In this document: positions 1,068 through 18,536 of the stretch, one piece after another
Layout: each line of letters begins with the position of its first letter
Numbering within the stretch: position 1 is the first letter of the stretch
DNA from: Thermodesulfovibrionales bacterium
Lineage (GTDB): Bacteria > Nitrospirota > Thermodesulfovibrionia > Thermodesulfovibrionales > CALJEL01
NCBI GenBank assembly: GCA_026417875.1
Contig: JAOACK010000006.1
Location: 1,201-65,200 of the forward strand
Length of the DNA stretch: 64,000 nucleotides
Direction of reading: 5' to 3'
Notes under the pieces: generated by a model
The model's input: only the letters and a program-made list of their open reading frames with translations
Databases searched by the model: none
Told to the model about the DNA's origin: nothing
Position numbers and translations under genes: made by a program

Positions 1068-1144
1068 TGGCGGGGTGGACGGGGCTCGAACCCGCGACCT
1101 TCGGCGTGACAGGCCGACGTTCTAACCAGCTGAACTACCACCCC
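1068..1144 (-). tRNA. tRNA-Asp (anticodon GTC), CCA encoded
   Basis: Reverse complement GGGGTGGTAGTTCAGCTGGTTAGAACGTCGGCCTGTCACGCCGAAGGTCGCGGGTTCGAGCCCCGTCCACCCCGCCA folds as a cloverleaf. Acceptor is GGGGTGG/CCACCCC, anticodon loop CTGTCAC, T-loop TTCGAGC. Confidence 0.95.
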
Positions 1145-1152
1145 AGAATATA

Positions 1153-1228
1153 TGGTAGGCGGAACAGGGATCGAACCTGTGACCTCAGCCTTGTAAGGGC
1201 TGCGCTCTCCCAACTGAGCTATCCGCCC
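1153..1228 (-). tRNA. tRNA-Val (anticodon TAC), CCA encoded
   Basis: Reverse complement is GGGCGGATAGCTCAGTTGGGAGAGCGCAGCCCTTACAAGGCTGAGGTCACAGGTTCGATCCCTGTTCCGCCTACCA. D-arm GCTC/GAGC, anticodon stem CAGCC/GGCTG with loop CTTACAA, T-loop TTCGATC. Position 1:72 is a G:T wobble. Confidence 0.93.
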
Positions 1229-1240
1229 GGAGTGTTTTAT

Positions 1241-1269
1241 TTTAACAACAATACTTATGGATTTGTCAA
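1241..1269 (-). promoter_or_regulatory. Candidate sigma-70 promoter for the tRNA-Val/tRNA-Asp pair
   Basis: On the minus strand: TTGACA (1269-1264), 17-nt spacer, GTTAAA (1246-1241; TAAAAT with a 19-nt spacer). It ends about 13 nt upstream of the tRNA-Val 5' end. Confidence 0.4.
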
Positions 1270-1351
1270 TTATAAAATTTTGAAAATAATCGGAAATAGA
1301 TTAACACAATCTATTGTCAACCAGGATATTTCATGTTATCCTTATTTCAGG

Positions 1352-2179
1352 ATGTATTCCAGAATACTCGCCACTGTTAATGAACACCTTACCTCTGAGA
1401 TTGCAGGTCTCTATAGCCTTCATATTGCAAAAGCCTGTAATGCTGTTCTTTACCTGGCCTATATTGCAGAGAAAGGCACCATAGAGTCTGATCTGAAAAA
1501 GGCCGAGTCTGCCTTAAAGAAGCTTTTTTACAATGCAGAAAAATCCGGTCTTAAGGTTGAGGCCATATTTGATACAGGAAATTTCAAACAGAAAATAAAG
1601 GAGATCGCTGAAACAAAAAAAATTGATATTATATTTGCAGCAACAAGCAGAAGCGGCAAAACCGAATATGGCCTTGGTTCTTCAGCAAAAGCTTTGCTCC
1701 GATTACCTTTATCTGTATGCCTCGTACGGGTTGTCCATTTTGGAAAAATTCATCCAGGAAGGATTTTAATTCCTTTGAAATCAAAGATAGATCATATTGA
1801 AGAAAGGGCTTATTTTTCCGCCCTTCTTGCAAAGGCCTTTGGCAGTTCAATCCATTTATTTCATATCACAAGGCCTTCAACAGGATTCTTTCATGGTGAA
1901 ATACACCTTACAGCCTTTGAACTTGAAAAAAGACTGAGCAGGGATATGCTTTCCTTCATAGATAAACTCCAGGAATTAGGTGTAAACTTTGAAAGAAAGT
2001 TGAGCCACGGTGCTCCATCGAAGGACATAACCATTGAGGCAGCCTCAAGGAGATTTGACCTTATAATGATGGGAGCGTCCACAAGAAGCTTTATTGGTTC
2101 TCTTATTGAAAAGAGTCCCCTTGAATATGTTATAGAAAAAACTCCCTGTAATCTCCTTATCTTCAAACCAAAGAGATGA
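1352..2179 (+). CDS. Universal stress protein family protein (two tandem Usp-like halves)
   Basis: ORF-track frame 1106..2179 trimmed to the first ATG (1352) downstream of the opposite-strand tRNAs. Two alpha/beta halves each end in a Usp-like segment (IDIIFAATSRSGK...; DLIMMGASTRSFIGSLIEKSPLEYVIEKTPCNLLIF). The stop overlaps the next start (ATGA). Confidence 0.7.
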   Translation: MYSRILATVNEHLTSEIAGLYSLHIAKACNAVLYLAYIAEKGTIESDLKKAESALKKLFYNAEKSGLKVEAIFDTGNFKQKIKEIAETKKIDIIFAATSRSGKTEYGLGSSAKALLRLPLSVCLVRVVHFGKIHPGRILIPLKSKIDHIEERAYFSALLAKAFGSSIHLFHITRPSTGFFHGEIHLTAFELEKRLSRDMLSFIDKLQELGVNFERKLSHGAPSKDITIEAASRRFDLIMMGASTRSFIGSLIEKSPLEYVIEKTPCNLLIFKPKR

Positions 2180-4803
2180 GAATAAACACTCTTCCAGCAG
2201 ATGAGGTGCTGAGTATTCTTGGAAGCTCTTCTCAAGGTTTAACAGAGGAAGAGGCAAGAAGAAGACTTTCAGAATTTGGCTATAATGAGATAGAGGAGAT
2301 AAGAAGAGAATCTCTTTTAAAAAAATTCTTTGAACAGTTTACCCACTTTCTTGCCCTGCTGCTCTGGATAGCCTCCCTTCTCTGTTTTATATATGAATGT
2401 CTTTATCCCGGTGAAGGTATGCTTAACCTCGGGATAGCCATTGTGTCCGTTATATTTGTCAATGGAGTCTTTACTTTCATTCAGGAATACAGGGCTGAAA
2501 AGGTCCTCAGGATAATGAAGGGTCTTCTTCCATTCAGGGCAAAGGTATTGAGAAATGGAATTTTAAGAGATATTGATGCAAGGGAGATTGTTATTGGTGA
2601 TATTGTTTGCCTTAATGAAGGTGACAGGATACCTGCTGATATGAGACTAATTGAGTCTGCTTCATTAAGGGTGAGTCAGGCAACACTTACAGGAGAATCA
2701 GAGCCAATCATTAAGACTCCTGAACTCTGTGAAAGTGAATTACTGACAAGTCCGAATATCCTTTTTGCAGGCACCTCAGTTATATCAGGTCATGGCAGGG
2801 CTGTGGTATTTGCAACTGGCATGAGAACAGAATTCGGTAAAATCGCCCATCTCGCAGGAACTGTGAGCCCTGGAATAAGCCCTCTTCAGAGGGAGATTAA
2901 GAGGATAACCAGGATAGTAGGTATAATCGCAACACTCATGGGAATTGTCTTTTTCATTACAGGCTTTCTGGTAAAGAGAACCTTTTTTGAAAACTTCCTT
3001 TTTGCTATAGGAATCATAGTTGCAAATGTTCCGGAAGGATTGCTTCCCACAGTTACCCTTTCCCTTGCGATGGGCAGTCAGAGGATGGCAAAAAGAAAGG
3101 CACTCATAAAAACACTCACCTCTGTAGAGACCCTTGGCTCAGTAGATGTAATATGTACTGATAAGACTGGAACCCTTACAATGAACAGGATGGAAGTAAA
3201 AGAGGTCCTGAACCTCAATGAGGGAAATACTGCTCCATATCCATCCCTTTATGATATAGCTCTCCTGTGTAATAATGCAGAAATCATAAACGATGAACTA
3301 AAGGGTGAACCTACAGAAATTGCTCTGTTCCGATGGGCATCAAAAAAAGGCAATCCCTCCAAAATCAGGATAAAGGAGATACCTTTCGATTCAGAAAGAA
3401 AGAGGATGAGTACAGTAAACAAAATACAGGAAAAGATATTTTTACTGACAAAGGGTGCACCAGAAAGCCTCCTCACCATAAGCACCCATTGCCTAATAGG
3501 AGGGGAAATTAAGGAATTAACACCAGCAGAGCGCGGAAAACTTATTGCGATTTACAATTCAATGATGGACAGGGGATTAAGGGTTCTTGCCTTTGGTTTC
3601 AGGGAACTCAATGAAGATGAACTCATTGAGAGTGATATAGAAAAAAAATTAGTACTTGTCGGCCTTATAGGCCTGCAGGACCCTCCAAGGCCTGAGGTAC
3701 CCGAGGCAATCCGAAAATGCAGAGCGGCAGGAATAAAAGTCATAATGATAACAGGCGATAGCTCAAGAACAGCACTATCAATAGCCAGACAGATAGGTCT
3801 TGTAAGGAATACTCCAAAGATAATAGAGGGCAGAGAATTTCACAGCCTCACAGACAGAGACTTAAGGGAGGCAATGAAAAGCGAAGAGATCATCTTTTCA
3901 AGGATGACACCTAAGAATAAACTCAGGATAGTTAACATACTCAAAGAAGAAGGTCACAGAGTGGCTGTAACAGGTGATGGAGTCAACGACGCACCTGCAT
4001 TGAGAAAGGCAGACATTGGCGTTGCAATGGGAAGTGGTACAGATGTGGCTAAGGAGGCAGCAGATATGATTCTTCTTGATGATAACTTTGCCACCATAGT
4101 GAATGCAATTGAAGAAGGAAGGGCTGTTTTTGAGAATATAAGAAATTTCATCACATATATATTTGCATCAAATATTCCGGAGATTGTTCCCTATATTGCC
4201 TATGTATTACTTGGAATACCTCTACCACTCACAATCATGCAGATACTTGCAGTTGATCTCGGAACAGACCTCTTTCCTGCCCTTGCCCTTGGAGCAGAAA
4301 AACCATCTAAGAACCTGATGCAGAAACCTCCAAGACCACCTGAAGAAAGGCTTTTAAACTGGAAGGTTTTATCACGAGCTTATCTCTTTCTCGGTCCAAT
4401 AGAGGCAATAGCAGGACTTTACGGATATTTTTATGTACTTAAATCAGGTGGCTGGCTATGGGGTACAGTGCTGTCATCTAAGGATATTTTATATCTCAAG
4501 GCAACCACTGCCTGTCTTGGAGGAATAATTATAACTCAGATAGCCAATGCCTTTGCCTGCAGGTCATCAGCTGAATCTGTTTTCAGGCTCGGAATATTTT
4601 CAAACAGGCTTTTAATCTTTGCTATCTTCATTGAAATAATAATAGCACTCCTTATTATTTATACAGGAACTGGCAATACCTTCTTTGGAACAGCACCTCT
4701 TGAGCCAGAGGTATGGCTCGTGCTTCTACCCTTCAGCATAATCTTATTTTTTGCTGAGGAGTTAATAAAAAGTCTTTTCACATTCCTGCCAGGAAGGAGA
4801 TAG
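2176..4803 (+). CDS. Cation-translocating P-type ATPase (P2-type, Ca2+/Na+-like)
   Basis: LTGESEP actuator motif, ICTDKTGTLT phosphorylation site, PEGLLPTVT in the M4 helix, MITGDS and TGDGVNDAPALRKADIG hinge, multiple C-terminal TM helices. Confidence 0.9.
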   Translation: MRINTLPADEVLSILGSSSQGLTEEEARRRLSEFGYNEIEEIRRESLLKKFFEQFTHFLALLLWIASLLCFIYECLYPGEGMLNLGIAIVSVIFVNGVFTFIQEYRAEKVLRIMKGLLPFRAKVLRNGILRDIDAREIVIGDIVCLNEGDRIPADMRLIESASLRVSQATLTGESEPIIKTPELCESELLTSPNILFAGTSVISGHGRAVVFATGMRTEFGKIAHLAGTVSPGISPLQREIKRITRIVGIIATLMGIVFFITGFLVKRTFFENFLFAIGIIVANVPEGLLPTVTLSLAMGSQRMAKRKALIKTLTSVETLGSVDVICTDKTGTLTMNRMEVKEVLNLNEGNTAPYPSLYDIALLCNNAEIINDELKGEPTEIALFRWASKKGNPSKIRIKEIPFDSERKRMSTVNKIQEKIFLLTKGAPESLLTISTHCLIGGEIKELTPAERGKLIAIYNSMMDRGLRVLAFGFRELNEDELIESDIEKKLVLVGLIGLQDPPRPEVPEAIRKCRAAGIKVIMITGDSSRTALSIARQIGLVRNTPKIIEGREFHSLTDRDLREAMKSEEIIFSRMTPKNKLRIVNILKEEGHRVAVTGDGVNDAPALRKADIGVAMGSGTDVAKEAADMILLDDNFATIVNAIEEGRAVFENIRNFITYIFASNIPEIVPYIAYVLLGIPLPLTIMQILAVDLGTDLFPALALGAEKPSKNLMQKPPRPPEERLLNWKVLSRAYLFLGPIEAIAGLYGYFYVLKSGGWLWGTVLSSKDILYLKATTACLGGIIITQIANAFACRSSAESVFRLGIFSNRLLIFAIFIEIIIALLIIYTGTGNTFFGTAPLEPEVWLVLLPFSIILFFAEELIKSLFTFLPGRR

Positions 4804-4879
4804 ACCGCAACTATCGGGGCTAAATTTAAGTAGTCGCAGAACTTTTTATATTAGAAAAAAAGTATGTCCGGCATATCCA

Positions 4880-5530
4880 TTAAATACCAGCAATTAGGAC
4901 AAAACCGTCTATAGGGTTACCACTCCTGGTCTTAAATTTCCTTACCTCAAATTCAATAATTTTATACCCAGTGTTTATGACAAGTTCCATAATCTCTTTG
5001 GACTCGAAATGGTGTGCAAGATAGAGTATGTTTCCATCTGAATCCCTGACATAGAATGTGCCCTTCTCTAGCCCACAGCTTATACCCTCTTCATATCTCT
5101 GTCTGTAAAGGGGAATGTTGTAATTCTGTAAAAAATCAGCAATATAAAGTAGCCCATTATTTCTCAGCAAATCTCTTATCCTTCTAAGCACTTCCACTCT
5201 TAAAGCCTCATCCACTAAAGTAGTCATGAAGGCATTCATAATTGCAATATCATAGCAGCCATCAATGTGTGAATTACATATGTCAGCAGTGATAAAGTTT
5301 ACATTCGGCAGCCTGAGTGACTGTGCCTTCTGGTTTGCCCTTTCAATGGCAGATTGATTAATGTCTACTCCTGTAACACTGTAACCTAGTAAACCAAGAG
5401 CCAGAGCAATGTTCCCGTTTCCGCAGCCAACATCAATAATTCTATACTCTGGCTTTAAGTACTTGAATAATAAATAATCTGGTTTTACAGTTGATGGTAT
5501 GCTTGCTGTCTTGCTCCAGAAATTATCCAT
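4880..5530 (-). CDS. Class I SAM-dependent methyltransferase
   Basis: Motif I IIDVGCGNGNIALALG, acidic loop VTGVDIN, post-I ITADI. Own AGGTGG Shine-Dalgarno 4 nt upstream of ATG 5530. A 186-nt gap separates it from the upstream operon. Confidence 0.8.
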   Translation of the reverse strand: MDNFWSKTASIPSTVKPDYLLFKYLKPEYRIIDVGCGNGNIALALGLLGYSVTGVDINQSAIERANQKAQSLRLPNVNFITADICNSHIDGCYDIAIMNAFMTTLVDEALRVEVLRRIRDLLRNNGLLYIADFLQNYNIPLYRQRYEEGISCGLEKGTFYVRDSDGNILYLAHHFESKEIMELVINTGYKIIEFEVRKFKTRSGNPIDGFVLIAGI

Positions 5531-5715
5531 ATGACCACCTAAATTTACTTACACACTATCTGTAATTAATGAATTCTTTTGGAAGACCAATAGATATCCT
5601 TTCACGCCCGAATGCCACAACAGAAAGTTAAAGCTGGAGATATTAAGGTCATTATATTTTTATCTACTTGATAAACAGAATTAAAATCAGAGGCCTGTTA
5701 CCTGCTATTTTTAAA

Positions 5716-6069
5716 TCATTCCGGCACCGGAGTACCGTTAATGAATATCTCTAAAATCTTTGCTATCGAATTTATCTTGCCAGCTAAAATTCTTTTCTGA
5801 TAGTCTGGATGGTTCCTGTCTATTTCCTCAGCAAACCAGTTGAACTTCATCACAAGGTCCTCTATGGAATCCACATAGAGACCTACTGCACAGTTATATG
5901 AAGGACACTCAAGCACAACAGGTTTTGCATCCTTATCTTCAGGAGGATAAATCTCTCTGTCAACACCTTTTGAGAGATAAAGTGCCATCTCTTCAGGTTG
6001 CTCGAAAAATAGAAGCCTGCGTCTCTCATCAGGTGGGTAGAGGCAGCTGTGACATACAGGAGGTTTCAT
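5716..6069 (-). CDS. Hypothetical small protein with CxxC and Cx4C cysteine pairs (possible zinc ribbon) and a helical C-terminus
   Basis: ORF track gives 5716..6084 from a TTG. I prefer ATG at 6069 (MKPPVCHSC...) because a TATAAT hexamer (6081-6076) ends 7 nt upstream and neither start has an SD. Motifs CHSC and CPSYNC. No family recognised. Confidence 0.5.
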   Translation of the reverse strand: MKPPVCHSCLYPPDERRRLLFFEQPEEMALYLSKGVDREIYPPEDKDAKPVVLECPSYNCAVGLYVDSIEDLVMKFNWFAEEIDRNHPDYQKRILAGKINSIAKILEIFINGTPVPE

Positions 6070-6110
6070 GTTATTATTATACAAGATAAGGTTGTTTTTT
6101 ATCTATTTGT

Positions 6111-6593
6111 TCATAAAAAGCTTCTGTGCATAGGGCCCCAAGATTCATATGTTCCGCTAGCCTTATCAAAATGATAAATTGTAACAGATGCATTACTAAA
6201 AACCTCTCCGGTAATTAATGCACCAACAACTGGTCCTCTGTAAAATAGATGAATTCTGTCAGCACCTTTCTCCATGGCTCGGGCTTTGAGTCTGTGCAAT
6301 TCTCTTACAAAATTGTCCAGATCTTCTTTTTTCAACTCTGGAGATGAATATTTTATCAGTTCTGAATTAATACCGTTTTCCTGCAAAAAAAGTCTTACCT
6401 GGTTTTCGCTCTCTCCGGGCCCAAAATCTATAAGGATTGCTACCGGTCTGTTTCCCTTTGCAGCTTCAAGACTCTGAATTAATATCTTCTGTCTCTTCTT
6501 CTGCGTATATATCATCCACCATGAGGATATTACAGGTAAAGAAACAATTATGCCAATGATTATATTTATCCTATCAAGCAGATCCCATAACAT
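6111..6593 (-). CDS. Membrane-anchored protein with a single Rossmann-like SAVED/CARF-like module
   Basis: N-terminal TM helix IIIGIIVSLPVISSWWMIY. It is followed by alternating strand/helix segments: PVAILIDFGPG, then RIHLFYRGPVVGALITGEVF, then VTIYHF. These resemble the conserved hLF..aP.a.a.l.G...v.vY block of SAVED sensor domains. Start lies 4 nt after the SPFH stop. Confidence 0.6.
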   Translation of the reverse strand: MLWDLLDRINIIIGIIVSLPVISSWWMIYTQKKRQKILIQSLEAAKGNRPVAILIDFGPGESENQVRLFLQENGINSELIKYSSPELKKEDLDNFVRELHRLKARAMEKGADRIHLFYRGPVVGALITGEVFSNASVTIYHFDKASGTYESWGPMHRSFL

Positions 6594-6597
6594 ATCC

Positions 6598-7482
6598 TTA
6601 TGACCCTTTATGAAAGATTTCGGAGAAGACCTTTGTTAATTCAATCGGTATTATAAACTTTGTAGATTGAGATGTGCCAATACTCCTTAAAGTCTCAAGA
6701 TACTGAAGGTTCATTGTCTTCTGGTCAATGTCCCGTGCCACTGAGAATATTTTATCAAGGGCAATTGAGTAACCCTCTGCCTCAAGTATCCTTGCCTGAC
6801 GTTCACCCTCTGCTCTTAGTATCTGAGCCTGCTTTATACCCTCTGCCTCAAGTATCTTTGCCTGTTTTTCTCCCTCTGCCTTGAGTATCTGTGATTGCTT
6901 CACTCCTTCTGCCTCTGTTACCATGGCACGCCTGGTCCTTTCAGCTGCCATCTGCTTTGTCATTGCATCCTTTACCTCTTTTGGAGGTGTGATCTCCCTT
7001 ATTTCCACAGCAGTAACCTTAACACCCCACCTGCTTGTAACCTCATCTAGTTTTATTTGCAATTGTTTGTTTATCTCTTCTCTTTTGGAAAGCACATCAT
7101 CAAGAGCTATATCGCCTATCACAGCTCTTAATGTTGTAGTTGCAAGTCCCCTTGCTGCAATTTCGAAATTCTGAACGCTAACTATGGAAATTACAGGATC
7201 TATTACCCTCATATATATTAGAAAATCTATTGATATGGGAGCATTATCCTTTGTTATACAGGTCTGTTCAGGTATATCAATTACAAATTCTCTTAGATCA
7301 ACACGCACAGGCCTATCAATAAGTGGAATAATTAGTGTTATACCTGGTCCCTTTGCTCTTTCAAGAACCCTTCCCAGTCTGAATACAACAATCCTTTCAT
7401 ATTCTTGCGCTATCCTGATAGCCGAAACAAGAAAGAGGATTAAAAAAGTAAGAATTACTACAATTGATATGGACAGATTCAT
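6598..7482 (-). CDS. SPFH/band-7 family protein (stomatin/QmcA-like)
   Basis: N-terminal TM anchor, then EYERIVVFRLGRV, GPGITLIIPLIDR, TLRAVIGDIALDDVLSKREEIN, and a C-terminal AEGxKQAxIL hendecad repeat region. Strong AAGGAGGG SD 6 nt upstream. The start shares one base with the upstream stop (TAATG). Confidence 0.9.
   Translation of the reverse strand: MNLSISIVVILTFLILFLVSAIRIAQEYERIVVFRLGRVLERAKGPGITLIIPLIDRPVRVDLREFVIDIPEQTCITKDNAPISIDFLIYMRVIDPVISIVSVQNFEIAARGLATTTLRAVIGDIALDDVLSKREEINKQLQIKLDEVTSRWGVKVTAVEIREITPPKEVKDAMTKQMAAERTRRAMVTEAEGVKQSQILKAEGEKQAKILEAEGIKQAQILRAEGERQARILEAEGYSIALDKIFSVARDIDQKTMNLQYLETLRSIGTSQSTKFIIPIELTKVFSEIFHKGS
6769..6915 (-). repeat. Coding 33-nt (11-residue) tandem repeats inside the SPFH gene
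   Basis: Protein repeats are ILKAEGEKQAK / ILEAEGIKQAQ / ILRAEGERQAR / ILEAEGYS. At nucleotide level the unit ctgcctcaagtatc(c/t)ttgcctg recurs. This is the typical SPFH C-terminal coiled coil. Confidence 0.7.
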
Positions 7483-7736
7483 TATAGACCCTCCTTTATT
7501 TTTTTGTTTATGTCTCTCAATTCGTCTCTGATATCAATAAAAAGATAAATCAAAAAAGCACCAAGGATTACAGCAGCTATACCGAATACTATAATAATTA
7601 AAAAACTTATAACATTAAATCTGCCAAATCCCGGTATAGATGCCATCAAGTATGCATACAGAATAGTCGTGATTATCCCAAAAATTACCGCAATACCTAC
7701 CAAAGGCTGCCCAATTTTTAAGATAAAGTTTTTCAT
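7482..7736 (-). CDS. Small integral membrane protein (two predicted TM helices, charged C-terminal helix)
   Basis: Hydrophobic stretches LVGIAVIFGIITTILYAYLMA and VISFLIIIVFGIAAVILGAFLIYLFI. GGAGGG SD 6 nt upstream, immediately after the CARF gene stop. Its stop overlaps the SPFH start. Confidence 0.65.
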   Translation of the reverse strand: MKNFILKIGQPLVGIAVIFGIITTILYAYLMASIPGFGRFNVISFLIIIVFGIAAVILGAFLIYLFIDIRDELRDINKKIKEGL

Positions 7737-7750
7737 ACACTTCCCTCCTA

Positions 7751-8905
7751 TTATTCATTAATTTTAATCTTTGTCTTTTCTATCCTAATACCGTACCTAG
7801 TAGCACCATAAATCTTAAATGAGCTTATTTGGCAAAAGGGTAAATATCTTTCATCAATTTCATCTTTGATTGCCTTGTTAATCTTTGTTATATACTGTCT
7901 TAAAGATTCAATACCTATTCCATCCCTCCACTTTTCTTTTAAATCTTCAGCCTTAAATGGCTGACCCCAGTAAATCTTCTTATAATCCTCTGCCATCTTT
8001 TCAAGAGCCTGCCTTGAGGAAAAGTCAATAAGAACAGGAAAACAATCAATACATTCAAGACAATATAATCTTTCAGGATATTTACAATGCTCTGTCTTTT
8101 GTCTGAGAAAGGCTGTATAAATCATTAAGTGCACAGGAATCATTTCTACTGTATGAGAACCAACCATGACAGTCCTTTCCCTGAGGTTTACTTGAAGAAC
8201 TGGCTGGAGCATAGCGATGTCTATTTCTTTCTGGCCTTCTTCAACGAGCTCTTCAAATTCTTTACCATGAAACTCAATTTTACTTCCTAATCTAATAAAA
8301 GGCAATTCAGCAAGTTCAATCTTCGCATTGTCGGTGTTGAGCTCTATAATCTCTCCATCAGACCTTCTGGCTTTAATAATTTTATTTAGCTTTGGCTTAT
8401 AAAAAAACTCTGGATTTGATTCAAACTCTTGACTCACCAGTACATGATAAAGTCTATCCCAGGGTCGTCCAAAAAGCTGAAGCGCTGAACCAAGATAAAA
8501 ACCCATTGTCTTTCTTCCACCAGCCAGGGAACAGTGAAGTCTTGATCTCGTATCTTTAGCCTTATCTCTTATAAAACTGGTAATAAAATTACCAGCTAAT
8601 GTATTATCCTCTTTATCTCTTATATCCTGTAACTCCTCTCCAAAAGCATTCTTTATTACCAATATTGAATCCTTAGTTAGAGGGATCTCAGGAATGCCAT
8701 ATTCTTTCTTAAATTCTTCAAAAATCCTCCTTTCAAAAAAGGCATCTTCAATTGCCTTCTTGCCTGTTGAAGTCGTAATTACAAATATCTCATCTGGATA
8801 GACAGGAGGTTCTTTTGTTACAAGGGCATAAAGGGTTTCTGTAATTATCTGAGGTGTTGCACCTGCAACAAAAATAAAAACCTCTTTAAATTTTTCTTCC
8901 TTCAT
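7751..8905 (-). CDS. CARF-domain protein of the Cas_NE0113/TIGR02584 type fused to an OmpR/PhoB-like winged-helix domain with a 4-Cys insert
   Basis: N-terminal half has VFIFVAGATPQIITETLYAL and LHCSLAGGRKTMGFYLGSALQLFGRPWDRLYHVLV, the family signature blocks as I recall them. C-terminal half: LQVNLRERTVMVGSHTVEMIPVHLMIYTAFL ... LRQYITKINKAIKD ... ISSFKIYGATRYGIRI resembles trans_reg_C. Insert is HC-x7-C-x2-C-x2-C (nt 8042-8086). Confidence 0.75.
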   Translation of the reverse strand: MKEEKFKEVFIFVAGATPQIITETLYALVTKEPPVYPDEIFVITTSTGKKAIEDAFFERRIFEEFKKEYGIPEIPLTKDSILVIKNAFGEELQDIRDKEDNTLAGNFITSFIRDKAKDTRSRLHCSLAGGRKTMGFYLGSALQLFGRPWDRLYHVLVSQEFESNPEFFYKPKLNKIIKARRSDGEIIELNTDNAKIELAELPFIRLGSKIEFHGKEFEELVEEGQKEIDIAMLQPVLQVNLRERTVMVGSHTVEMIPVHLMIYTAFLRQKTEHCKYPERLYCLECIDCFPVLIDFSSRQALEKMAEDYKKIYWGQPFKAEDLKEKWRDGIGIESLRQYITKINKAIKDEIDERYLPFCQISSFKIYGATRYGIRIEKTKIKINE

Positions 8906-8911
8906 GAAAGA

Positions 8912-8940
8912 ATTATAAAAAAATAAATAATCTAAGGCAA
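8912..8940 (-). promoter_or_regulatory. Candidate sigma-70 promoter of the CARF operon; geometry implies a leaderless transcript
   Basis: Minus strand: TTGCCT (8940-8935), 17-nt spacer, TATAAT (8917-8912). ATG at 8905 is 7 nt after the hexamer. No SD. Confidence 0.45.
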
Positions 8941-8945
8941 GGCTA

Positions 8946-8966
8946 GAAATGTTTCAGAAATATTTC
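8946..8966. promoter_or_regulatory. Tandem 11-bp direct repeat GAAATGTTTCa GAAATATTTC (each unit an internal palindrome); candidate operator
   Basis: GAAATGTTTC at 8946-8955 and GAAATATTTC at 8957-8966, with an 11-bp period. It lies 5 nt upstream of the -35 of the CARF promoter. Confidence 0.35.
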
Positions 8967-9153
8967 CAATAATATCATAATCTTATTTGCACTCTGGATA
9001 TCCGGTTCAGGTTCATGAGTCTTTATGAAAAAAAACATATTAAAACCACCATTACTGATAAAGAATAAAGCAACCTTCTTTACTTTTCGATGAAAAAAAG
9101 AGGCGATTCAGCTTAGAAAATGAACCTAGGGACGGTCAAAGCCTTTGCTGATA

Positions 9154-9162
9154 TGTTATTAT
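9154..9162 (+). promoter_or_regulatory. Candidate extended -10 element (TGtTATTAT) for secA
   Basis: TG at 9154-9155, hexamer TATTAT at 9157-9162. secA ATG at 9169 follows 7 nt later. No SD. Confidence 0.35.
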
Positions 9163-9168
9163 ATTAAA

Positions 9169-11850
9169 ATGATTGGATTTTTACTGAAAAAAATCTTTGG
9201 CACCAAGAATGAGAGGGAGCTCAAAAGACTCTGGCCTATTGTCCACAGAATAAACTCCCTTGAACCAGCTGTAGCAGCTCTTTCCGACCTCGAACTCAGA
9301 AAGAAGACCGATGAATTCAGAGAACGACTCATCAATGGTGAGACCCTTGATGACCTCCTTCCTGAAGCCTTTGCTGTTGTAAGGGAGGCAGGAAAAAGAA
9401 CTATCAATATGAGACACTTTGATGTACAGCTCCTGGGAGGTATAGTGCTTCATGAAGGAAAGATAGCAGAGATGAAAACCGGAGAGGGTAAGACCCTTGT
9501 CGCAACCCTTCCCCTTTATCTTAATGCTCTTGAGGGAAAGGGCTGTCATCTCGTTACTGTGAATGATTATCTTGCAAAAAGAGATGCCCAGTGGATGGGT
9601 CCGATTTACAATTTTCTTGGACTTTCTGTAGGTGTGATTCAGCATGACGCCTCCTTTCTCTATGACCCCAATTATCGCTCCACTGACAAGAGATTTGACA
9701 GGCTAAGACCCTGCACCAGAAAAGAGGCCTATCTGGCAGACATAACCTATGGCACAAATAATGAGTTCGGCTTTGACTATCTAAGGGATAATATGAAATA
9801 TGATATAAATGACTACTGTCAGAGAGAGCTTCATTATGCAATAGTGGATGAGGTTGATAGTATACTAATAGACGAAGCAAGGACACCACTCATAATATCA
9901 GGACCTTCAGAGGAATCAACAGGGAAATACTACCATGTTGACAAAGTTGTAAGAAAACTTCAGAAGGACCTTGACTTCACGATTGATGAAAAGGCAAGAA
10001 CTGTTATACTGACAGAGGCAGGAATCCACAGGGTTGAAAAGCTTCTGGGTGTTGATAATCTTTATGATCCATCAAATATAGATCTTGTCCATCATGTCCT
10101 ACAGGCACTAAAGGCCCATCACCTCTTTCACAGAGATGTGGACTATGTTGTAAAGGATGGAAAGGTTATTATAGTTGATGAATTCACAGGTAGGCTCATG
10201 CCGGGAAGGCGTTGGTCAGATGGTCTCCACCAGGCTATTGAAGCAAAAGAGGGATTAAAGATTGAAAGCGAAAACCAGACCCTTGCAACCATAACATTCC
10301 AGAACTACTTCAGAATGTATAAAAAGCTTGCTGGGATGACAGGTACTGCTGATACCGAGGCAGAGGAATTTGCCAAGATATACAATCTTGATGTGGTTAT
10401 AATACCAACCCATAAACCGATGATAAGGGTTGACCATCCAGATCTTATTTATAAGACCGAGAAGGCAAAGTTTGATGCAGTGGTAAAAGAGATTGAGGAA
10501 TGCCATAAAAGAGGTCAGCCTGTCCTAGTAGGAACAATATCAATAGAAAAATCAGAACGACTTAGCCAGATGCTGAAGAAAAGGGGGATACCCCATTCTG
10601 TATTGAATGCCAAGTATCATGAAAAGGAGGCTGAAATAATTGCACAGGCTGGAAGGCTTGGTGCTGTAACCATTGCAACAAATATGGCAGGTCGAGGCAC
10701 GGACATCATTCTCGGTGGAAATCCTGAAGGTCTTGCGAGGATCTGGCTCAGGGAGAAAAAATCCGACTGGACGGACGAAGAATTTCAGGAGGCCTTAAAA
10801 AAGGCAGAGAAGATATGTGCAGAGGAAAGGCAGAAGGTTATAGAAGCTGGAGGGCTTCATATAATAGGAACAGAAAGACATGAGGCAAGGAGAATAGATA
10901 ACCAGCTCAGAGGCCGTTCCGGAAGGCAGGGTGATCCAGGTTCATCAAGGTTCTATCTATCCCTTGAAGATGACCTAATGAGAATCTTTGCCTCGGATAG
11001 AATCTCTGGCCTGATGGATAGGCTCGGCATGGATGAAACAATACCAATTGAAAACAGGCTTGTCACAAAAGCAATAGAGAATGCCCAGAAAAGGGTTGAG
11101 GCACATAATTTTGATATAAGAAAACACCTGCTTGAATACGATGATGTCCTCAACAAACAGAGGACAGAGATATACAGGTTCAGAAGGGAGATACTTGAAA
11201 GCGACAATCTAAAGGATCACATCCAGGGCATGATTGAAGATACAGTGGATGAACTCATAAACCTCTACTGTCCTTCTGAATCCCATTTTGAAGAATGGGA
11301 TCTGAAAGGTCTCAGGGATAATCTCTGGAGTATCTTCTCCTTTAATGAAGAACTTAAACCATCTGAGAATATGAGAGACCAGATAATTGAATCCCTCTTT
11401 GAACTTTACAATAGAAAGGAACAGGAAATAGGCCCTGAATTCATGAGATATCTTGAAAAGGTATTCCTTCTCAGTGTTGTTGACAGTCAGTGGAAGGATC
11501 ATCTTCTTGCCATGGATCATCTTAAGGAAGGGATAGGACTCAGGGGGTATGCTCAGAGGGATCCCCTTGTGGAGTATAAAAGGGAAGCATTCCATATGTT
11601 TGGAGAACTCAAGGAAAGAATAAACAGGGAAGTCCTAACAAGACTCTTCAAGGTAGAAATAAAGAAAGAAGAGAAGGCTCCAACTATTAACCTGAGAAGA
11701 CCTGTTTTTGCTTCAAGCAGCCTGAGCTATAATAAAGATGACGGAAGGGGGCCAAGGGAACCGGTACATGTTAAGAAGATAGGAAGAAATGATCCATGTC
11801 CCTGCGGAAGTGGAAAGAAGTACAAAAAATGCTGTGGAGTGAATGCGTAA
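9169..11850 (+). CDS. secA: Preprotein translocase ATPase SecA
   Basis: [21 protein letters not shown] aligns residue-for-residue with the E. coli SecA N-terminus, so I use ATG 9169 rather than the track TTG 9145. MKTGEGKT Walker [20 protein letters not shown]-terminal zinc motif [14 protein letters not shown]. Confidence 0.97.
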
Positions 11851-13243
11851 AATCATACTCATAGGAAAAAATTCCTCAAGGGATGATTACTGGCAGGTTC
11901 TACGGGAGCTAGGCCAGGAGGTCCTGAGATTTACAGATGTAAAGACTGCATTAAAATTTCTTAATTCCTCTAATAACAATGCAACACTAATAGTGATTGA
12001 CCGCGAAGAAATTAAAAATCCACACCATAGAAAATTTAATTATCTTACAAGAAGCATACCAAGAATAATTTTATATGAAAACAACCAGAAAGGTATTCTC
12101 CAGCATCTAAGGCACTCCTTCACCTTTCCCCTTTACATACCTAAACCAGAAACTCTACTTCAGGTTTCGAAAAACCTGATCAATATAAAAAATATTCATG
12201 AAGAGAATGAATTATTAAGAGCAGAAAACAGAGGTACAAAAAGGGAACTACAGTTTTTTGAAGAGATAAGCAAGATACTGACCTCTTCACTGGAACTTGA
12301 CGAGATGCTTAAATTCATTATGAAAAAGGCTAAGGAGATAACCCGTGCCGATGCCTGGTCAGTACTTCTACTGGATGAAGAAAGCAATGAGCTTATATTC
12401 AAAAATATTGAGGGAAAGAAAAAAAAGGACCTTTACCAGATGAGGGTAAAAATGGGTGAGGGAATAGCCGGATGGGTTGCAAGGGAAAGAGTGCCTGTAA
12501 TAGTTCCAGATGTATCCAAGGATAGCAGATTCTCCTGCAGAATTGATAAGGTTATTCACTTCAGGATAAGATCTCTACTATGTGTGCCAATCATAAGTAA
12601 AGATAAATGCATTGGTGTCATAGAACTTGTCAGCAAGAACAAGGAAAAACCATTCACAAAGGATGATCTTGATTTTATGCTCAAACTCGTTGACCATGCT
12701 GCTCTTGCGATTGAGAGAGCAACCCTCTATCAGAAAATGGCAGAGCTTGTCATAACAGATGACCTCACAAAATTATTCAATACAAGATATCTACACAGAA
12801 CCCTTGATACAGAAATATACAGGTGTGATAGATATAAGACATCGCTTTCTCTTATATTTATGGATGTTGATCACTTCAAACAGATAAATGATACATACGG
12901 ACATCTTGTTGGAAGCAAGCTCCTTGTGGAAATTGCCCAGCTTCTTTTAAAGCATTTAAGGTCAGCGGATATTGTTGCCAGGTACGGTGGAGATGAATAT
13001 GTAATAGTCCTTCCTCAGACACCGCCTGATGCTGCTGCAAGGATAACAGAAAGACTCAGAAAAAACATTGAACAGAACATCTTTTTAAGAAAGGATGGTT
13101 ATTTTATAAAAGTCACAGCTAGCTTTGGAGTTGCCTCCTATCCCGAGAGTGCAAAAACAAAAGAGGAACTTCTCAGACTTGCTGATGAAGCAATGTACCG
13201 GATTAAAAACACGACGAGAAACGGAGTTTATGCAATAATCTGA
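11843..13243 (+). CDS. Pseudo-receiver / GAF / GGDEF diguanylate cyclase
   Basis: The N-terminal REC-like fold lacks the acidic pair (ILIGKNSS). A central GAF domain follows. C-terminal GGDEF domain has [14 protein letters not shown]: an intact RxxD I-site 5 residues before the A-site, with the A-site variant GGDEY. Start overlaps the secA stop by 8 nt. Confidence 0.85.
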
Positions 13244-14181
13244 TGGCCCTATTCAATTACGCTACAAAGGAGATCATCCTCAAGATTGTCTATTACGGTC
13301 CCGGGTTAAGTGGTAAAACCACGAATCTTGAGGTCCTCCATAAATCCTTCTCACCTGAATCGGTGGGAAAGCTCATATCGCTTTCAACAGAGGCAGACAG
13401 GACGCTTTTCTTTGACTTTCTTCCAATAGAACTTGGCAGAATAAAAGATTTTACCCTCAGATTTCAGCTCTATACAGTTCCAGGACAGGTAAGATATAAC
13501 TCAACAAGAAAGCTGGTCCTTAAGGGTGCTGATGCAGTTGTGTTTGTTGCTGACTCCCAGCGGCAGATGAGAGAACAGAACATAGAAAGCTTCCAGAACA
13601 TGAGGGAGAATCTTATTGAAAATAATATTGACCCTGATGATATTCCAGTTGTCCTTCAGTACAATAAAAGAGACCTGCCAGATATATTATCGGTTCAGGA
13701 ACTTAATAATGACCTAAATCTTAGATGGTATCCATACATTGAAGCAGTGGCAATTAATGGAACTGGTGTCAAGGAGACCTTTCAGGCGGTAACAGAACTA
13801 CTCATTAAACACCTTTCAAAAAAATACTCTATTAAAATGAAAGAGGCCGGAATTATAGAAGTAACTCCGCCAGTACAAGCAAAAGAAGGTCCAGCTCTTA
13901 CTGAAGAGAAAAGAGCCCCAGCGATTGATTCCCATTCCATAATAGAAGATATTTATACAGAACTCAAAAGACTGTCTGAGAGGATAGAAAAGATTGAAAA
14001 GATAGTCATTGAAAAAAATCAAAAGGCTCTCACTTCTGAAAGCATCGAGAGTCAATTAATTCAGATACAGAAAAATCTTTCAGAACTTTATAAATCCCAT
14101 AGGGATATGATAATCCAGTTAAGAACTGTATATGACATCCTGAGCAAGGCTAGACTTGAAAAAAAGGGTATATTTTTCTAA
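13243..14181 (+). CDS. mglA: MglA-type Ras-like small GTPase with a ~115-aa coiled-coil C-terminal extension
   Basis: KIVYYGPGLSGKTTNL (P-loop), LISLSTEADRTLFFDFLP, LYTVPGQV, LQYNKRDL. It is near-collinear with Myxococcus MglA over about 195 aa. An extra tail occupies 13828-14181. TGATG overlap with the upstream gene. Confidence 0.85.
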   Translation: MALFNYATKEIILKIVYYGPGLSGKTTNLEVLHKSFSPESVGKLISLSTEADRTLFFDFLPIELGRIKDFTLRFQLYTVPGQVRYNSTRKLVLKGADAVVFVADSQRQMREQNIESFQNMRENLIENNIDPDDIPVVLQYNKRDLPDILSVQELNNDLNLRWYPYIEAVAINGTGVKETFQAVTELLIKHLSKKYSIKMKEAGIIEVTPPVQAKEGPALTEEKRAPAIDSHSIIEDIYTELKRLSERIEKIEKIVIEKNQKALTSESIESQLIQIQKNLSELYKSHRDMIIQLRTVYDILSKARLEKKGIFF

Positions 14182-14183
14182 CC

Positions 14184-15380: not shown

Positions 15381-15412
15381 AATTGAATTAAGACAATTTA
15401 ATTTAAATTTTA

Positions 15413-17969: not shown

Positions 17970-17970
17970 A

Positions 17971-18519: not shown

Positions 18520-18536
18520 GAAGAATCCTCCAAAAG

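What the first reader, a model, noticed from the sequence alone, without database searches (positions are those of the whole stretch)
6111..6593. 160-aa membrane-anchored half-SAVED (single CARF-like unit) encoded 4 nt after the SPFH gene
Seen: one N-terminal TM helix is followed by about 130 aa with a beta-alpha-beta pattern: PVAILIDFG, ELIKYSS, RIHLFYRGPVVGALITGEVF, VTIYHF.
The hLFxxxPxxxAxxxG...hxhY block is what I associate with SAVED domains. Canonical SAVED is a fusion of two CARF-like units (about 250 aa), whereas this protein has room for only one.
Inference: it would need to dimerise, like CARF, to form a ligand pocket. With no fused effector, it may work by TM-helix rearrangement inside the SPFH assembly. 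TM-SAVED effectors are known from CBASS and type III CRISPR contexts, but there they accompany a cyclase, which is missing here.
Basis: partly seen in the sequence, partly recalled or inferred. Interest (0 to 1): 0.6.

Follow-up and report, generated by a model that had tools for sequence, protein, structure and literature searches.

The report
Membrane-anchored single-unit SAVED sensor, CRISPR-derived
This small membrane protein carries only one half of the usual two-part SAVED signal-sensing domain. It belongs to a large, uncharacterised family normally encoded at the end of type III CRISPR operons, but here it sits in a CRISPR-less operon next to a stomatin-like scaffold gene.

Summary
ORF 6111-6593 (minus strand) encodes 160 aa and starts 4 nt after the SPFH stop codon. 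It has one N-terminal TM helix followed by about 115 aa.

That domain passes the curated Pfam and NCBIfam SAVED cut-offs. A confident AlphaFold model (pLDDT 93.7) matches only solved SAVED domains, and only one of their two CARF-like halves.

The upstream gene is a CARF protein (NE0113/CARF5). The 160-aa family has at least 304 clusters at 50% identity, nearly all 160-190 aa. In all nine independent Cas-linked contexts sampled it lies in or beside CRISPR-Cas loci, seven of them with an intact-GGDD Cas10, usually with Card1 and Csx3.

Locus L015 reads NE0113-cas10-csm2-5-halfSAVED-Card1. In the window the csm block is replaced by an 84-aa 2TM gene plus a QmcA-type SPFH gene. That arrangement is conserved in three diverged Thermodesulfovibrionales lineages under purifying selection.

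Most likely this is a cA4-sensing minimal membrane effector that dimerises or stacks. The SPFH link is new but may be incidental, because this SPFH is a ubiquitous housekeeping orthologue.

The family is catalogued but uncharacterised, and the operon is a new variant. Interest is moderate.

The parts
6111..6593 (-). 160-aa protein: one N-terminal TM helix plus one SAVED-type CARF-like unit (the finding)
   Evidence: ORF. SAVED profile matches. AF2 model with pLDDT 93.7. Foldseek top hits are all SAVED domains.
6507..6569 (-). TM helix, residues I9-Y29, followed by KKRQK. G14, P20 and the basic pair at 33/34 are the commonest residues in more than 50% of distant family members. S24 and W25 are nearly invariant only in the close family.
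   Evidence: Hydropathy and positive-inside count. Conservation. AF2 helix 2-44.
6114..6458 (-). Cytoplasmic single CARF-like unit, residues 46-160. Topology is b-a-b-a-b-a-b-b (5 strands, 3 helices, terminal beta-hairpin). Family-wide conserved residues are P50, V66, G110, H115, F117, P121, G129, N134, Y140, Y149 and W152.
   Evidence: Secondary structure. Conservation in the 124 distant members. Structural matches.
6598..7482 (-). QmcA/stomatin-type SPFH protein, 294 aa, with an N-terminal TM helix and a coiled coil built of 11-aa repeats
   Evidence: Pfam Band_7 at 7.7e-38. E. coli QmcA (PDB 8z5g) at 3.7e-58 over the full length. 60-90% identical orthologues in many phyla.
7482..7736 (-). 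84-aa protein with 2 TM helices. Its stop overlaps the SPFH start by 1 nt (TAATG). It is present in L007 and absent in L005.
   Evidence: No NfeD or other family passes a cut-off.
7751..8905 (-). 384-aa CARF protein of the NE0113/CARF5 family, first gene of the operon
   Evidence: Pfam Cas_NE0113 at 1.2e-43. TIGR02584 at 216.8 bits against a cut-off of 80.65. PADLOC CARF5--CARF at 2e-101. Homologues head or adjoin the type III loci L015, L019 and L020.
8912..8940 (-). Promoter-like site (TTGCCT-17-TATAAT, 10 of 12) just upstream of the NE0113 start
   Evidence: This is a consensus match only, and the number of sites is not above the shuffle expectation.
5716..6084 (-). 122-aa ORF with four Cys (CxxC...CxxxC) and no family match. 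It is a conserved neighbour of the module in L007 and L012, but there it lies beyond the methyltransferase on the opposite strand.
4880..5530 (-). Class I SAM methyltransferase, a conserved downstream neighbour (47% identity to L007 and L012). Whether it belongs to the module is uncertain.

Best explanation
What it is. The 160-aa protein belongs to a large family of single-pass inner-membrane proteins. Their cytoplasmic part is one SAVED-type CARF-like unit, that is, half of a canonical SAVED domain. The family is an ancillary component of type III CRISPR-Cas loci.

How it most likely works (inferred). Two copies pair to rebuild a SAVED-like two-unit platform. This platform binds a Cas10-made cyclic oligoadenylate, most likely cA4. 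Ligand-driven pairing or head-to-tail stacking then clusters or re-packs the TM helices, which depolarises or perturbs the membrane and arrests growth. This is the same logic as Cam1, Cap1, Csx23 and the CBASS TM-SAVED effectors.

The situation in this window. The gene sits in a tight four-gene operon: NE0113 CARF, 84-aa 2TM protein, QmcA-type SPFH, half-SAVED. This arrangement looks like a type III-A locus whose cas10-csm5 block was replaced by the SPFH cassette. The module would then depend on a type III system encoded elsewhere in the genome.

Shown versus inferred. Shown here: the architecture, the fold assignment, the cytoplasmic orientation, the CRISPR association of the family, purifying selection, and conservation of the operon. 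Inferred: ligand identity, oligomeric state, membrane activity, supply of signal in trans, and any role for the SPFH protein.
For: Identity:
- SAVED profile hits pass curated cut-offs.
- The best PADLOC models are SAVED4--SAVED_TM and 'CARF, 2 TMs'.
- The AF2 model has pLDDT 93.7.
- Thirteen of the 15 best Foldseek PDB hits, including the top 13, are SAVED domains (Cap4, CalpL, Cap5, 3TM-SAVED). Rmsd is 2.3-3.5 A for most of them over about 115 columns, covering only one half of the target.

Orientation: the positive-inside bias holds across the family.

Family size: at least 304 clusters at 50% identity, nearly all 160-190 aa.

Genomic context (nine independent non-SPFH contexts, all next to cas genes):
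- In seven the gene lies within or at the end of a type III effector operon. Examples are L001/2, L003, L004, L009/10, L015, L020, L021 and L022.
- In the other two it lies next to adaptation genes: L008 beside RT-Cas1 and L019 between NE0113 and Cas1/Cas2.
- Every co-operonic Cas10 keeps the GGDD cyclase motif.

Ligand guess (cA4):
- Card1-type nucleases sit in at least 5 loci and Csx3/Crn3 in at least 7 (same calls).
- Csx3/Crn3 is described as cA4-specific in PMC12409355.
- That Card1 is cA4-activated is from my own knowledge.

Mechanistic analogues:
- Cam1 has one TM helix plus a CARF domain. The dimer binds cA4 and a tetrameric pore is predicted (PMC10808066).
- Cap1 is a tetramer whose pore opens on cA4 binding (bioRxiv 10.1101/2025.11.13.688252).
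- A Csx15 dimer superposes on a SAVED monomer and sandwiches cA4 head-to-tail (PMC13148439).

Functional gene: dN/dS is 0.06-0.17.

The operon is real:
- Gene junctions are 14, -1 and 4 nt.
- The same order is kept in L005/L011, L007 and L012 with dS above 1.
- L007 and L012 keep a Csx3 ring nuclease right after the half-SAVED, so oligoadenylate signalling is still relevant to the Cas10-less module.
Against: - No Cas10, csm/cmr, cas6, cas1/2 or csx3 gene and no CRISPR array is found in the 64-kb window. A signal source for this copy is therefore not shown.
- There is no biochemical evidence for ligand binding or membrane activity in any family member. No solved structure exists for the family (best PDB sequence hit E = 0.033).
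- The TM helix has few polar residues that could line a pore.
- Oligomer modelling could not be run.
- Single-unit relatives such as Csx15 are ring nucleases or sponges rather than effectors (PMC13148439).
Confidence: 0.6

Rival explanations
1. It is a membrane-tethered oligoadenylate sponge or ring nuclease. The single-unit domain dimerises and stacks on cA4 as Csx15 and AcrIII-2 do. Its job would be to remove or buffer the signal near the membrane, not to damage the membrane.
For: - The closest single-unit analogue, Csx15, and the best PDB sequence hit, AcrIII-2 (9R8S), are both cA4 ring nucleases or sponges that act by head-to-tail stacking (PMC13148439; PMC12751052).
- The model has the same 5-strand, 3-helix unit with a terminal hairpin.
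- Conserved His, Tyr and Glu residues are present (H115, Y140, Y149, E150).
- There is no recognisable effector domain.
Against: - The family usually sits beside a dedicated ring nuclease, Csx3. In PMC12409355 this pattern is read as a sign of an effector that lacks intrinsic ring-nuclease activity, as argued there for Cam1.
- In the profile alignment to AcrIII-2, chain position 135 aligns to G60 of this protein. That position is the catalytic H128 if the chain carries a 7-residue numbering offset, which I inferred from S194. The alignment is weak.
- Several TM-region positions are moderately conserved across distant members (G14, P20, the basic pair at 33/34), which a passive anchor would not require.
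Confidence: 0.2
2. The half-SAVED is the sensor subunit of an SPFH-based device. It relays oligoadenylate binding to the QmcA-type cage and the 84-aa protein, or is gated by them. The SPFH assembly would then be the true effector or regulator. This is.
For: - The spacing is tight: 4-7 nt between the SPFH and half-SAVED genes in the window, L005 and L007. The 84-aa and SPFH genes overlap by 1 nt.
- The arrangement is kept in three lineages with dS above 1, and all genes have dN/dS below 0.2.
- Both proteins have an N-terminal anchor with a predicted cytoplasmic bulk.
- From my own knowledge: SPFH cages enclose or regulate membrane partners (HflK/C with FtsH), and stomatins modulate ion channels.
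Against: - This SPFH is a ubiquitous housekeeping orthologue, 60-85% identical across phyla.
- A related SPFH outside the operon (81% global identity; 85% by BLASTP) is a lone gene that merely neighbours a decayed type III-D locus. Proximity may therefore be historical.
- None of the nine other family contexts has an SPFH.
- The 84-aa gene is absent in L005.
- No paper in the searched library links SPFH with CARF or SAVED.
Confidence: 0.15
3. It is the effector of a non-CRISPR cyclic-nucleotide system (CBASS-like or Panoptes-like), using a CD-NTase or minimal CRISPR polymerase rather than Cas10.
For: - TM-SAVED effectors occur in CBASS (PDB 9wq3).
- PMC12657218 reports operons pairing mCpol with 2TM-SAVED or 2TM-CARF proteins.
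- No Cas10 is present in the window.
Against: - No CD-NTase or mCpol match appears in the operon proteins at E up to 1, nor among the 20 other window proteins scanned at E up to 1e-5.
- All nine relatives sampled outside the SPFH operon are Cas-linked, seven of them inside type III loci.
- The operon partners are CRISPR-type: NE0113 in the window, and Csx3 in L007 and L012.
Confidence: 0.04

Closest known systems
Canonical SAVED sensor domains (Cap4, Cap5, CalpL, TIR-SAVED, viral AcrIII-2; Pfam PF18145, NCBIfam NF033611)
   Same: The sequence profile match is above curated cut-offs. The fold of the unit is the same (5 strands, 3 helices). The hLFxxGPxxxAxxxG motif block is present. The family is associated with cyclic-oligonucleotide signalling loci.
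   Different: There is only one CARF-like unit (about 115 aa) rather than two fused units (about 230-260 aa). It aligns to the C-terminal unit only. No enzymatic effector domain is fused; there is only a single TM helix.
Census families PADLOC PDLC02011 'SAVED4--SAVED_TM' and PDLC01160 'CARF, 2 TMs'
   Same: These are the best profile matches (9.4e-23, and 1.9e-21 over the full length of the 172-position model). The family has therefore already been catalogued bioinformatically as a CRISPR-linked sensor with TM segments.
   Different: These are names only. I found no experimental work or explicit description of the single-unit nature in the searchable library. The census paper (Makarova et al. 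2020, NAR 48:8828) was not held, so what it says about this family could not be checked. The window copy has one TM helix, not two.
[quoted passage not shown]
   Same: The architecture and size class match: one N-terminal TM helix plus a cytoplasmic Rossmann-like sensor (206 aa versus 160 aa). Both are encoded in type III loci, frequently alongside ring nucleases. The expected mode of action is the same (dimer binds cA4, TM helices form or perturb a pore).
   Different: This is not a detectable homologue. Cam1 does not appear in the PDB sequence search at E up to 10 or among the top 50 Foldseek hits. Cam1 uses a CARF domain with a strand-swapped dimer. A conserved pore-lining Asp such as Cam1 D17 is not evident here.
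Csx15 ring nuclease/sponge (PMC13148439)
   Same: Csx15 is a single-unit protein of the CARF/SAVED superfamily whose homodimer superposes on one SAVED monomer (AcrIII-2). It has five strands with a beta4-beta5 hairpin and binds cA4 between head-to-tail stacked dimers. It is a precedent for how a half-SAVED could work.
   Different: Csx15 is soluble and acts as an off-switch. No sequence similarity was detected in the searches run here. This protein is membrane-anchored.
QmcA / stomatin SPFH operons (E. coli QmcA, PDB 8z5g; HflK/C-FtsH)
   Same: The neighbouring gene is a full-length QmcA-type SPFH protein (3.7e-58) preceded by a small membrane protein, as in SPFH-NfeD pairs.
   Different: The small partner is not NfeD (no Pfam match). 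The operon is flanked by a CARF gene and a half-SAVED gene. No such combination turned up in the literature searches.

Membership tests
SAVED domain (PF18145 / NF033611) | Significant match to the curated family profiles | tested here: met
   Pfam gives 35.5 bits against a cut-off of 26.2. NCBIfam gives 35.9 bits against a cut-off of 33.
SAVED domain (PF18145 / NF033611) | Two CARF-like pseudo-subunits fused in one chain | tested here: not met
   The soluble part is 115 aa with 5 strands and 3 helices. Matches cover only the C-terminal half of full-length SAVED models and structures.
SAVED domain (PF18145 / NF033611) | Structural similarity of the unit to solved SAVED domains | tested here: met
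   Foldseek probability is 1.00 and E is 1e-4 to 6e-3 for Cap4, CalpL, Cap5 and 3TM-SAVED, which make up 13 of the 15 best hits including the top 13. Rmsd is 2.3-3.5 A for most of them. This rests on a predicted model, not an experimental structure.
SAVED domain (PF18145 / NF033611) | Binds a cyclic oligonucleotide | not testable with these tools
   Needs ITC, thermal shift or co-crystallisation with cA2-cA6 and cyclic di- and trinucleotides.
Type III CRISPR ancillary (oligoadenylate-responsive) protein | Encoded in or next to a type III locus with a cyclase-competent Cas10 | tested here: inconclusive
   Met for the family: all nine sampled non-SPFH contexts adjoin cas genes. Seven of them carry a Cas10, and every one has GGDD. 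Not met for this copy: no cas gene or array is found in 64 kb. The rest of the genome could not be examined.
Cam1 family | Sequence or structural homology to the Cam1 CARF domain | tested here: not met
   Cam1 is absent from the PDB sequence hits at E up to 10 and from the top 50 Foldseek hits.
Cam1-like functional class (TM plus sensor effectors) | N-terminal TM helix with a cytoplasmic nucleotide-sensor domain | tested here: met
Cam1-like functional class (TM plus sensor effectors) | Ligand-triggered membrane depolarisation and growth arrest | not testable with these tools
   Needs an in vivo assay with an active type III system.
CalpL/AcrIII-2-type SAVED ring nuclease | Catalytic His on the lower face (AcrIII-2 H128, CalpL H396) | tested here: inconclusive
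   In the HMM alignment the His at chain position 135 of 9R8S aligns to G60. That position corresponds to H128 if the chain has a 7-residue numbering offset, which I inferred from S194 (PMC12751052). The alignment is weak (E = 0.033).
SPFH-NfeD operon | An NfeD-family partner encoded next to the SPFH gene | tested here: not met
   The 84-aa 2TM protein has no NfeD match. Only sub-threshold hits to LapA_dom and DUF948 were found.
CBASS / Panoptes | Adjacent CD-NTase or mCpol synthase | tested here: not met
   No such family is found among the six operon-region proteins at E up to 1. The 20 other window proteins scanned (at E up to 1e-5) are housekeeping.

The most novel reading that the evidence does not exclude
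A QmcA-type stomatin cage, with a small 2TM partner, may have been recruited as a dedicated component of cyclic-oligoadenylate immune signalling. In this lineage the cas10-csm block of a type III-A locus was swapped for the SPFH cassette. The result would be a stand-alone, trans-activated CARF-SPFH-halfSAVED membrane module in which the SPFH assembly confines, gates or buffers a minimal oligoadenylate-activated membrane effector. That would be the first functional link between SPFH microdomains and CRISPR or cyclic-nucleotide defence.
Probability: 0.2. Interest if true: 0.7.

Novelty: new variant of a known kind. Interest (0 to 1): 0.5.

Why it matters
Membrane-acting type III CRISPR effectors (Cam1, Csx23, Cap1, CorA) are a recent and still small class. 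This family is abundant, with at least 304 clusters at 50% identity. It is tiny, it sits at the very end of csm/cmr operons, and it has no solved structure or assay.

It would be the minimal SAVED-type effector, and a natural test of whether a half-SAVED homodimer rebuilds the SAVED ligand platform. Csx15 suggests this is possible for soluble proteins.

The window adds a Cas10-less, SPFH-containing version that has been maintained under purifying selection. If the SPFH link is functional, it connects stomatin-type scaffolds to cyclic-nucleotide immunity. If it is not, the locus still documents how CRISPR ancillary modules survive and relocate after loss of the effector complex.

Tried and rejected
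Tools and sources that gave nothing:
- Makarova et al. 2020, the CARF/SAVED census, is not held in the library. What the census says about SAVED4/SAVED_TM could not be checked.
- The diverse alignment A2 was too variable for the search for related loci.
- The genome and metagenome scans with A1 gave only 2 and 6 loci, mostly repeats of loci already in hand.
- Literature searches for SPFH together with CARF, SAVED, CRISPR or anti-phage defence found nothing relevant.

Hypotheses considered and rejected:
- Cam1, Cam2, Cam3, Csx23 or Cap1 membership. The architectures or folds differ and no homology was detected.
- Panoptes or CBASS. No mCpol or CD-NTase is present.
- The 84-aa protein as NfeD.
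- The nearby GAF-GGDEF gene (11843-13243) as the signal source. It lies on the opposite strand beyond secA and is absent from the related loci.
- A csx3 or cas remnant in the window. A tblastn search with 19 Cas proteins returned only noise.
- A defence-island setting. The rest of the window is housekeeping.

Not attempted: a fused-dimer structure prediction.
Full report

The minus strand carries an ATG-initiated ORF at 6111..6593 that encodes 160 aa. The upstream gene, 6598..7482, is an SPFH/Band 7 protein (Pfam 7.7e-38). Its TAA stop occupies 6598-6600 and the next ATG is at 6591-6593, so the gap is exactly 4 nt. An AAGGA motif overlaps the stop codon (sequence).

The N-terminus contains one hydrophobic helix, I9-Y29, followed by KKRQK.

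2. What the protein is.

Profile evidence:
- It passes the curated cut-offs of Pfam SAVED (35.5 bits against 26.2, E 1.1e-8) and NCBIfam SAVED (35.9 bits against 33).
- In PADLOC the best models are SAVED4--SAVED_TM (9.4e-23) and PDLC01160 'CARF, 2 TMs' (1.9e-21, covering 11-170 of 172 positions). SAVED-Lon and TIR-SAVED models follow. No CARF1-9 family model matches at E below 0.001; one further 'CARF, 4 TMs' model (PDLC01167) matches weakly at E 0.0073.

Structure evidence:
- An AlphaFold2 model was built on a 138-sequence alignment. It is confident (pLDDT 93.7, pTM 0.78).
- It shows a long N-terminal helix (residues 2-44) and then a b-a-b-a-b-a-b-b domain with five strands and three helices.
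- Foldseek against the PDB returns SAVED domains for 13 of the 15 best hits, including the top 13: Cap4, CalpL, Cap5 and a 3TM-SAVED filament. Probability is 1.00 and rmsd is 2.3-3.5 A for most of them over about 115 columns. Generic Rossmann-like folds only appear at weaker E-values.

Evidence for a single unit:
- The target-normalised TM-scores are only 0.2-0.37.
- The sequence matches fall on NCBIfam positions 162-254 of 261, on chain positions 109-230 of 243 in AcrIII-2 (PDB 9R8S), and on 293-395 of 433 in TIR-SAVED.
- The protein therefore has one CARF-like unit, equivalent to the C-terminal half of a SAVED domain.
- AcrIII-2's own units are described as five-stranded sheets with three helices (PMC12751052), which matches the model.

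3. Orientation.

Among 84 family members with a single predicted TM segment, the 15 residues before the helix carry 0.57 K/R on average and the 15 after it carry 4.27. In 92% of them there are more K/R after the helix than before it. By the positive-inside rule the sensor domain is cytoplasmic. The SPFH protein has the same kind of N-terminal anchor.

4. The family and its usual home.

Sixteen close homologues (49-76% identical, 135-164 aa, counting two truncated sequences) come from Thermodesulfovibrionales and related metagenomes. An exhaustive profile search finds 304 clusters at 50% identity with E up to 1e-3, and 123 with E up to 1e-10. Almost all are 160-190 aa. The short single-unit architecture is therefore the norm for this family, not a truncation.

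Genomic contexts:
- Dissulfurispira thermophila (64% identity): the gene follows the last RAMP gene of a Csx19-type type III locus and precedes a Card1-like CARF gene, csx3, a cas6-like gene, cas2 and an 11-repeat array.
- L003, L004, L009/L010 and L015: the gene follows csm5 and precedes Card1 and Csx3.
- L008: the gene sits beside an RT-Cas1 fusion.
- Four distant members (22-31% identity) were sampled on long contigs. Three lie in type III loci: type III-B in L020 and L021, and type III-D in L022. The fourth (L019) lies between NE0113 and Cas1/Cas2 with no Cas10 in the stretch fetched.
- Every co-operonic Cas10 keeps the GGDD cyclase motif.

This is consistent guilt by association with oligoadenylate signalling. 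The recurrent partners are Card1 and Csx3/Crn3. Csx3/Crn3 is cA4-specific per PMC12409355. That Card1 is cA4-activated is from my own knowledge. Together these make cA4 the most likely ligand.

5. What is different in the window.

The gene is the last of a tight operon:
- NE0113/CARF5 protein, 7751-8905 (Pfam 1.2e-43, PADLOC CARF5 2e-101).
- A 14-nt gap.
- An 84-aa 2TM protein, 7482-7736.
- A 1-nt overlap.
- SPFH, 6598-7482.
- A 4-nt gap.
- The half-SAVED.

The window contains no CRISPR array. A tblastn search with 19 Cas proteins finds no cas gene. The rest of the window is housekeeping: secA, tRNA synthetases, uvrD, leuA, ilvD, glgB, dapB, pdxJ and others.

The same NE0113-(86 aa)-SPFH-halfSAVED order occurs in three further contigs from Thermodesulfovibrionales or related metagenomes: L005/L011, L007 and L012. 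In L007 and L012 the half-SAVED is followed by csx3, a methyltransferase and a 126-aa Cys-rich ORF.

L015 is the informative comparison. It reads NE0113-cas10-csm2-csm3-csm4-csm5-halfSAVED-Card1. The window operon therefore has the two flanks of a type III-A locus, with the effector-complex genes replaced by the 84-aa and SPFH genes. L019 even has NE0113 directly next to the half-SAVED.

Between the three SPFH-linked lineages dS exceeds 1. dN/dS is 0.06-0.17 for the half-SAVED, about 0.04-0.05 for SPFH and 0.05-0.12 for NE0113. The arrangement is therefore old and all its genes are maintained by selection. The NE0113 and 84-aa region has lower GC (0.34) than its surroundings (0.39-0.42).

6. 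Is the SPFH a partner or a bystander?

It is a full-length orthologue of E. coli QmcA (PDB 8z5g, 3.7e-58). It belongs to an extremely conserved and ubiquitous group: 60-85% identity in Bacteroidia, Chloroflexi, Nitrospirae and others, with thousands of hits at E below 1e-40.

A related copy outside the operon (P0197; 85% by BLASTP, 81% global) is a lone gene next to lgt, lspA and ileS. About 1 kb away lies a decayed type III-D locus consisting of Csx19, a RAMP gene, a short Cas2 and a single degenerate repeat. Type III loci and this SPFH gene are thus neighbours in the lineage anyway, which makes a historical explanation plausible.

- Against a bystander role: the translational-coupling distances are conserved over dS above 1.
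- For a bystander role: none of the nine other family contexts includes an SPFH, the 84-aa gene is dispensable (absent in L005), and the 84-aa protein is not NfeD.

No paper in the searchable library connects SPFH with CARF, SAVED or CRISPR. I rate a dedicated functional link at roughly 0.2-0.35.

7. Mechanism.

Shown here:
- A cytoplasmic single SAVED-type unit on a single TM helix.
- Membership of a family embedded in cyclase-competent type III loci.
- Purifying selection.

Inferred:
- Two units pair to rebuild a SAVED-like platform. The precedent is Csx15, a soluble single-unit protein whose dimer superposes on the AcrIII-2 SAVED monomer and sandwiches cA4 between head-to-tail dimers (PMC13148439).
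- Ligand binding drives pairing or stacking that re-packs the TM helices and compromises the membrane. This is how Cam1 works (one TM helix plus CARF; the dimer binds cA4 and a tetrameric pore is predicted; PMC10808066). Cap1 is a tetramer whose pore opens on cA4 binding (bioRxiv 10.1101/2025.11.13.688252). A TM-SAVED filament has also been solved (PDB 9wq3).
- G14, P20 and a basic pair after the helix are the commonest residues at their positions in more than half of the distant members. This hints that the helix is more than an anchor.

In the window the signal would have to come from a type III system elsewhere in the genome. The csx3 retained in L007 and L012 argues that oligoadenylates still matter for the Cas10-less operon.

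The main rival is a membrane-tethered sponge or ring nuclease. The frequent co-occurrence with Csx3 argues against it. So does the apparent replacement of the AcrIII-2 and CalpL catalytic His by Gly, although that rests on a weak alignment and an inferred numbering offset (PMC12751052). Neither point excludes it.

8. Comparison with what is known, and novelty.

The protein works like Cam1 but is not a Cam1 homologue. It matches SAVED profiles but fails the defining two-unit architecture. It is best described as a single-unit SAVED-type (SAVED4-related) TM protein.

The family is already present in profile collections (the PADLOC models) and is annotated by NCBI as 'SAVED domain-containing protein'. 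I found no characterisation of it. It is not among the effector families named in the passages I read of the 2024 bioinformatic survey (PMC11229360). The census paper itself could not be read.

Verdict:
- The protein is a new member of a catalogued but uncharacterised family.
- The SPFH-containing, Cas10-less operon is a new variant of a type III ancillary module.
- Interest is moderate (0.5). The family is a good candidate for a minimal membrane effector, but the most eye-catching element, the SPFH, may be incidental.

Noticed in passing
window 1068-1228 (-) and ORF 1106-2179 (+): tRNA-Asp(GTC) and tRNA-Val(TAC) lie at 1068-1144 and 1153-1228. The GTG-started 357-aa ORF at 1106 overlaps them, and its N-terminus reads like translated tRNA sequence. 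The universal-stress-protein-like gene probably starts further downstream.
   Followed up: partly
window 6772-6915: A 33-nt (66-nt) tandem repeat lies inside the SPFH gene. It encodes the 11-aa AEGxKQAxILx repeats of the coiled-coil region. It is not a regulatory or CRISPR-like repeat.
   Followed up: yes
window 5716-6084 (-); L007 4165-4545 (-); L012 1944-2324 (-): A 122-126-aa ORF with four Cys and no family match is a conserved neighbour of the module (42-44% identity). In the window it lies between the half-SAVED and the methyltransferase on the same strand. In L007 and L012 it lies beyond the methyltransferase on the opposite strand, and a csx3 gene occupies the position after the half-SAVED. 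The window therefore appears to have lost csx3 and rearranged this segment.
   Followed up: partly
window 1106-8905 versus L005 4002-7998: A Usp gene and a P-type ATPase gene neighbour the module in both the window and L005, but on opposite ends of the operon. In the window the half-SAVED end lies nearer the ATPase. In L005 the NE0113 end is next to Usp. This suggests local inversion or relocation of the module.
   Followed up: no
window 7000-9000: GC content dips to 0.34-0.35 over the NE0113 and 84-aa genes, against 0.39-0.42 around them. This is compatible with a foreign origin for that part of the operon.
   Followed up: no
window 11843-14181 (+): A GAF-GGDEF protein (the RYGGDEY motif is visible in the translation) is followed, with a 1-nt overlap, by a 312-aa Ras/Arf-like small GTPase with a long C-terminal extension. 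It is probably unrelated to the SAVED module.
   Followed up: no
L023 375-5915 and L024 (same arrangement): A decayed type III-D locus (Csx19, a 708-aa RAMP fusion, a 67-aa Cas2 fragment, one full and one truncated CRISPR repeat) lies about 1 kb from a lone SPFH gene that is 81-85% identical to the window's SPFH. Next to it are lgt, lspA and ileS.
   Followed up: partly
L001 (Dissulfurispira thermophila) 2221-20486: Two type III systems flank one 11-repeat CRISPR array. The second Cas10 (596 aa, Cmr2-type) has no GGDD motif, whereas the first (524 aa) has one.
   Followed up: no
BFVD hits to model m28cd33277662: Several small uncharacterised phage proteins of 110-135 aa share the single-unit fold at E 3e-5 to 3e-3. 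Examples are A0A8S5LQX9 (Siphoviridae), A0A345MLW9, A0A1S5Y369 (archaeal virus) and a Caulobacter phage CcrColossus protein. They are possible viral oligoadenylate sponges or anti-CRISPRs of the Csx15/AcrIII-2 kind.
   Followed up: no
L004 6600-7209; L003 and L015 (AbiEii at L015 11949-12605): Toxin-antitoxin genes are inserted between the half-SAVED, Card1 and cas6 genes of type III loci. These are VapBC in L004 and an AbiEii-type nucleotidyltransferase in L003 and L015.
   Followed up: no
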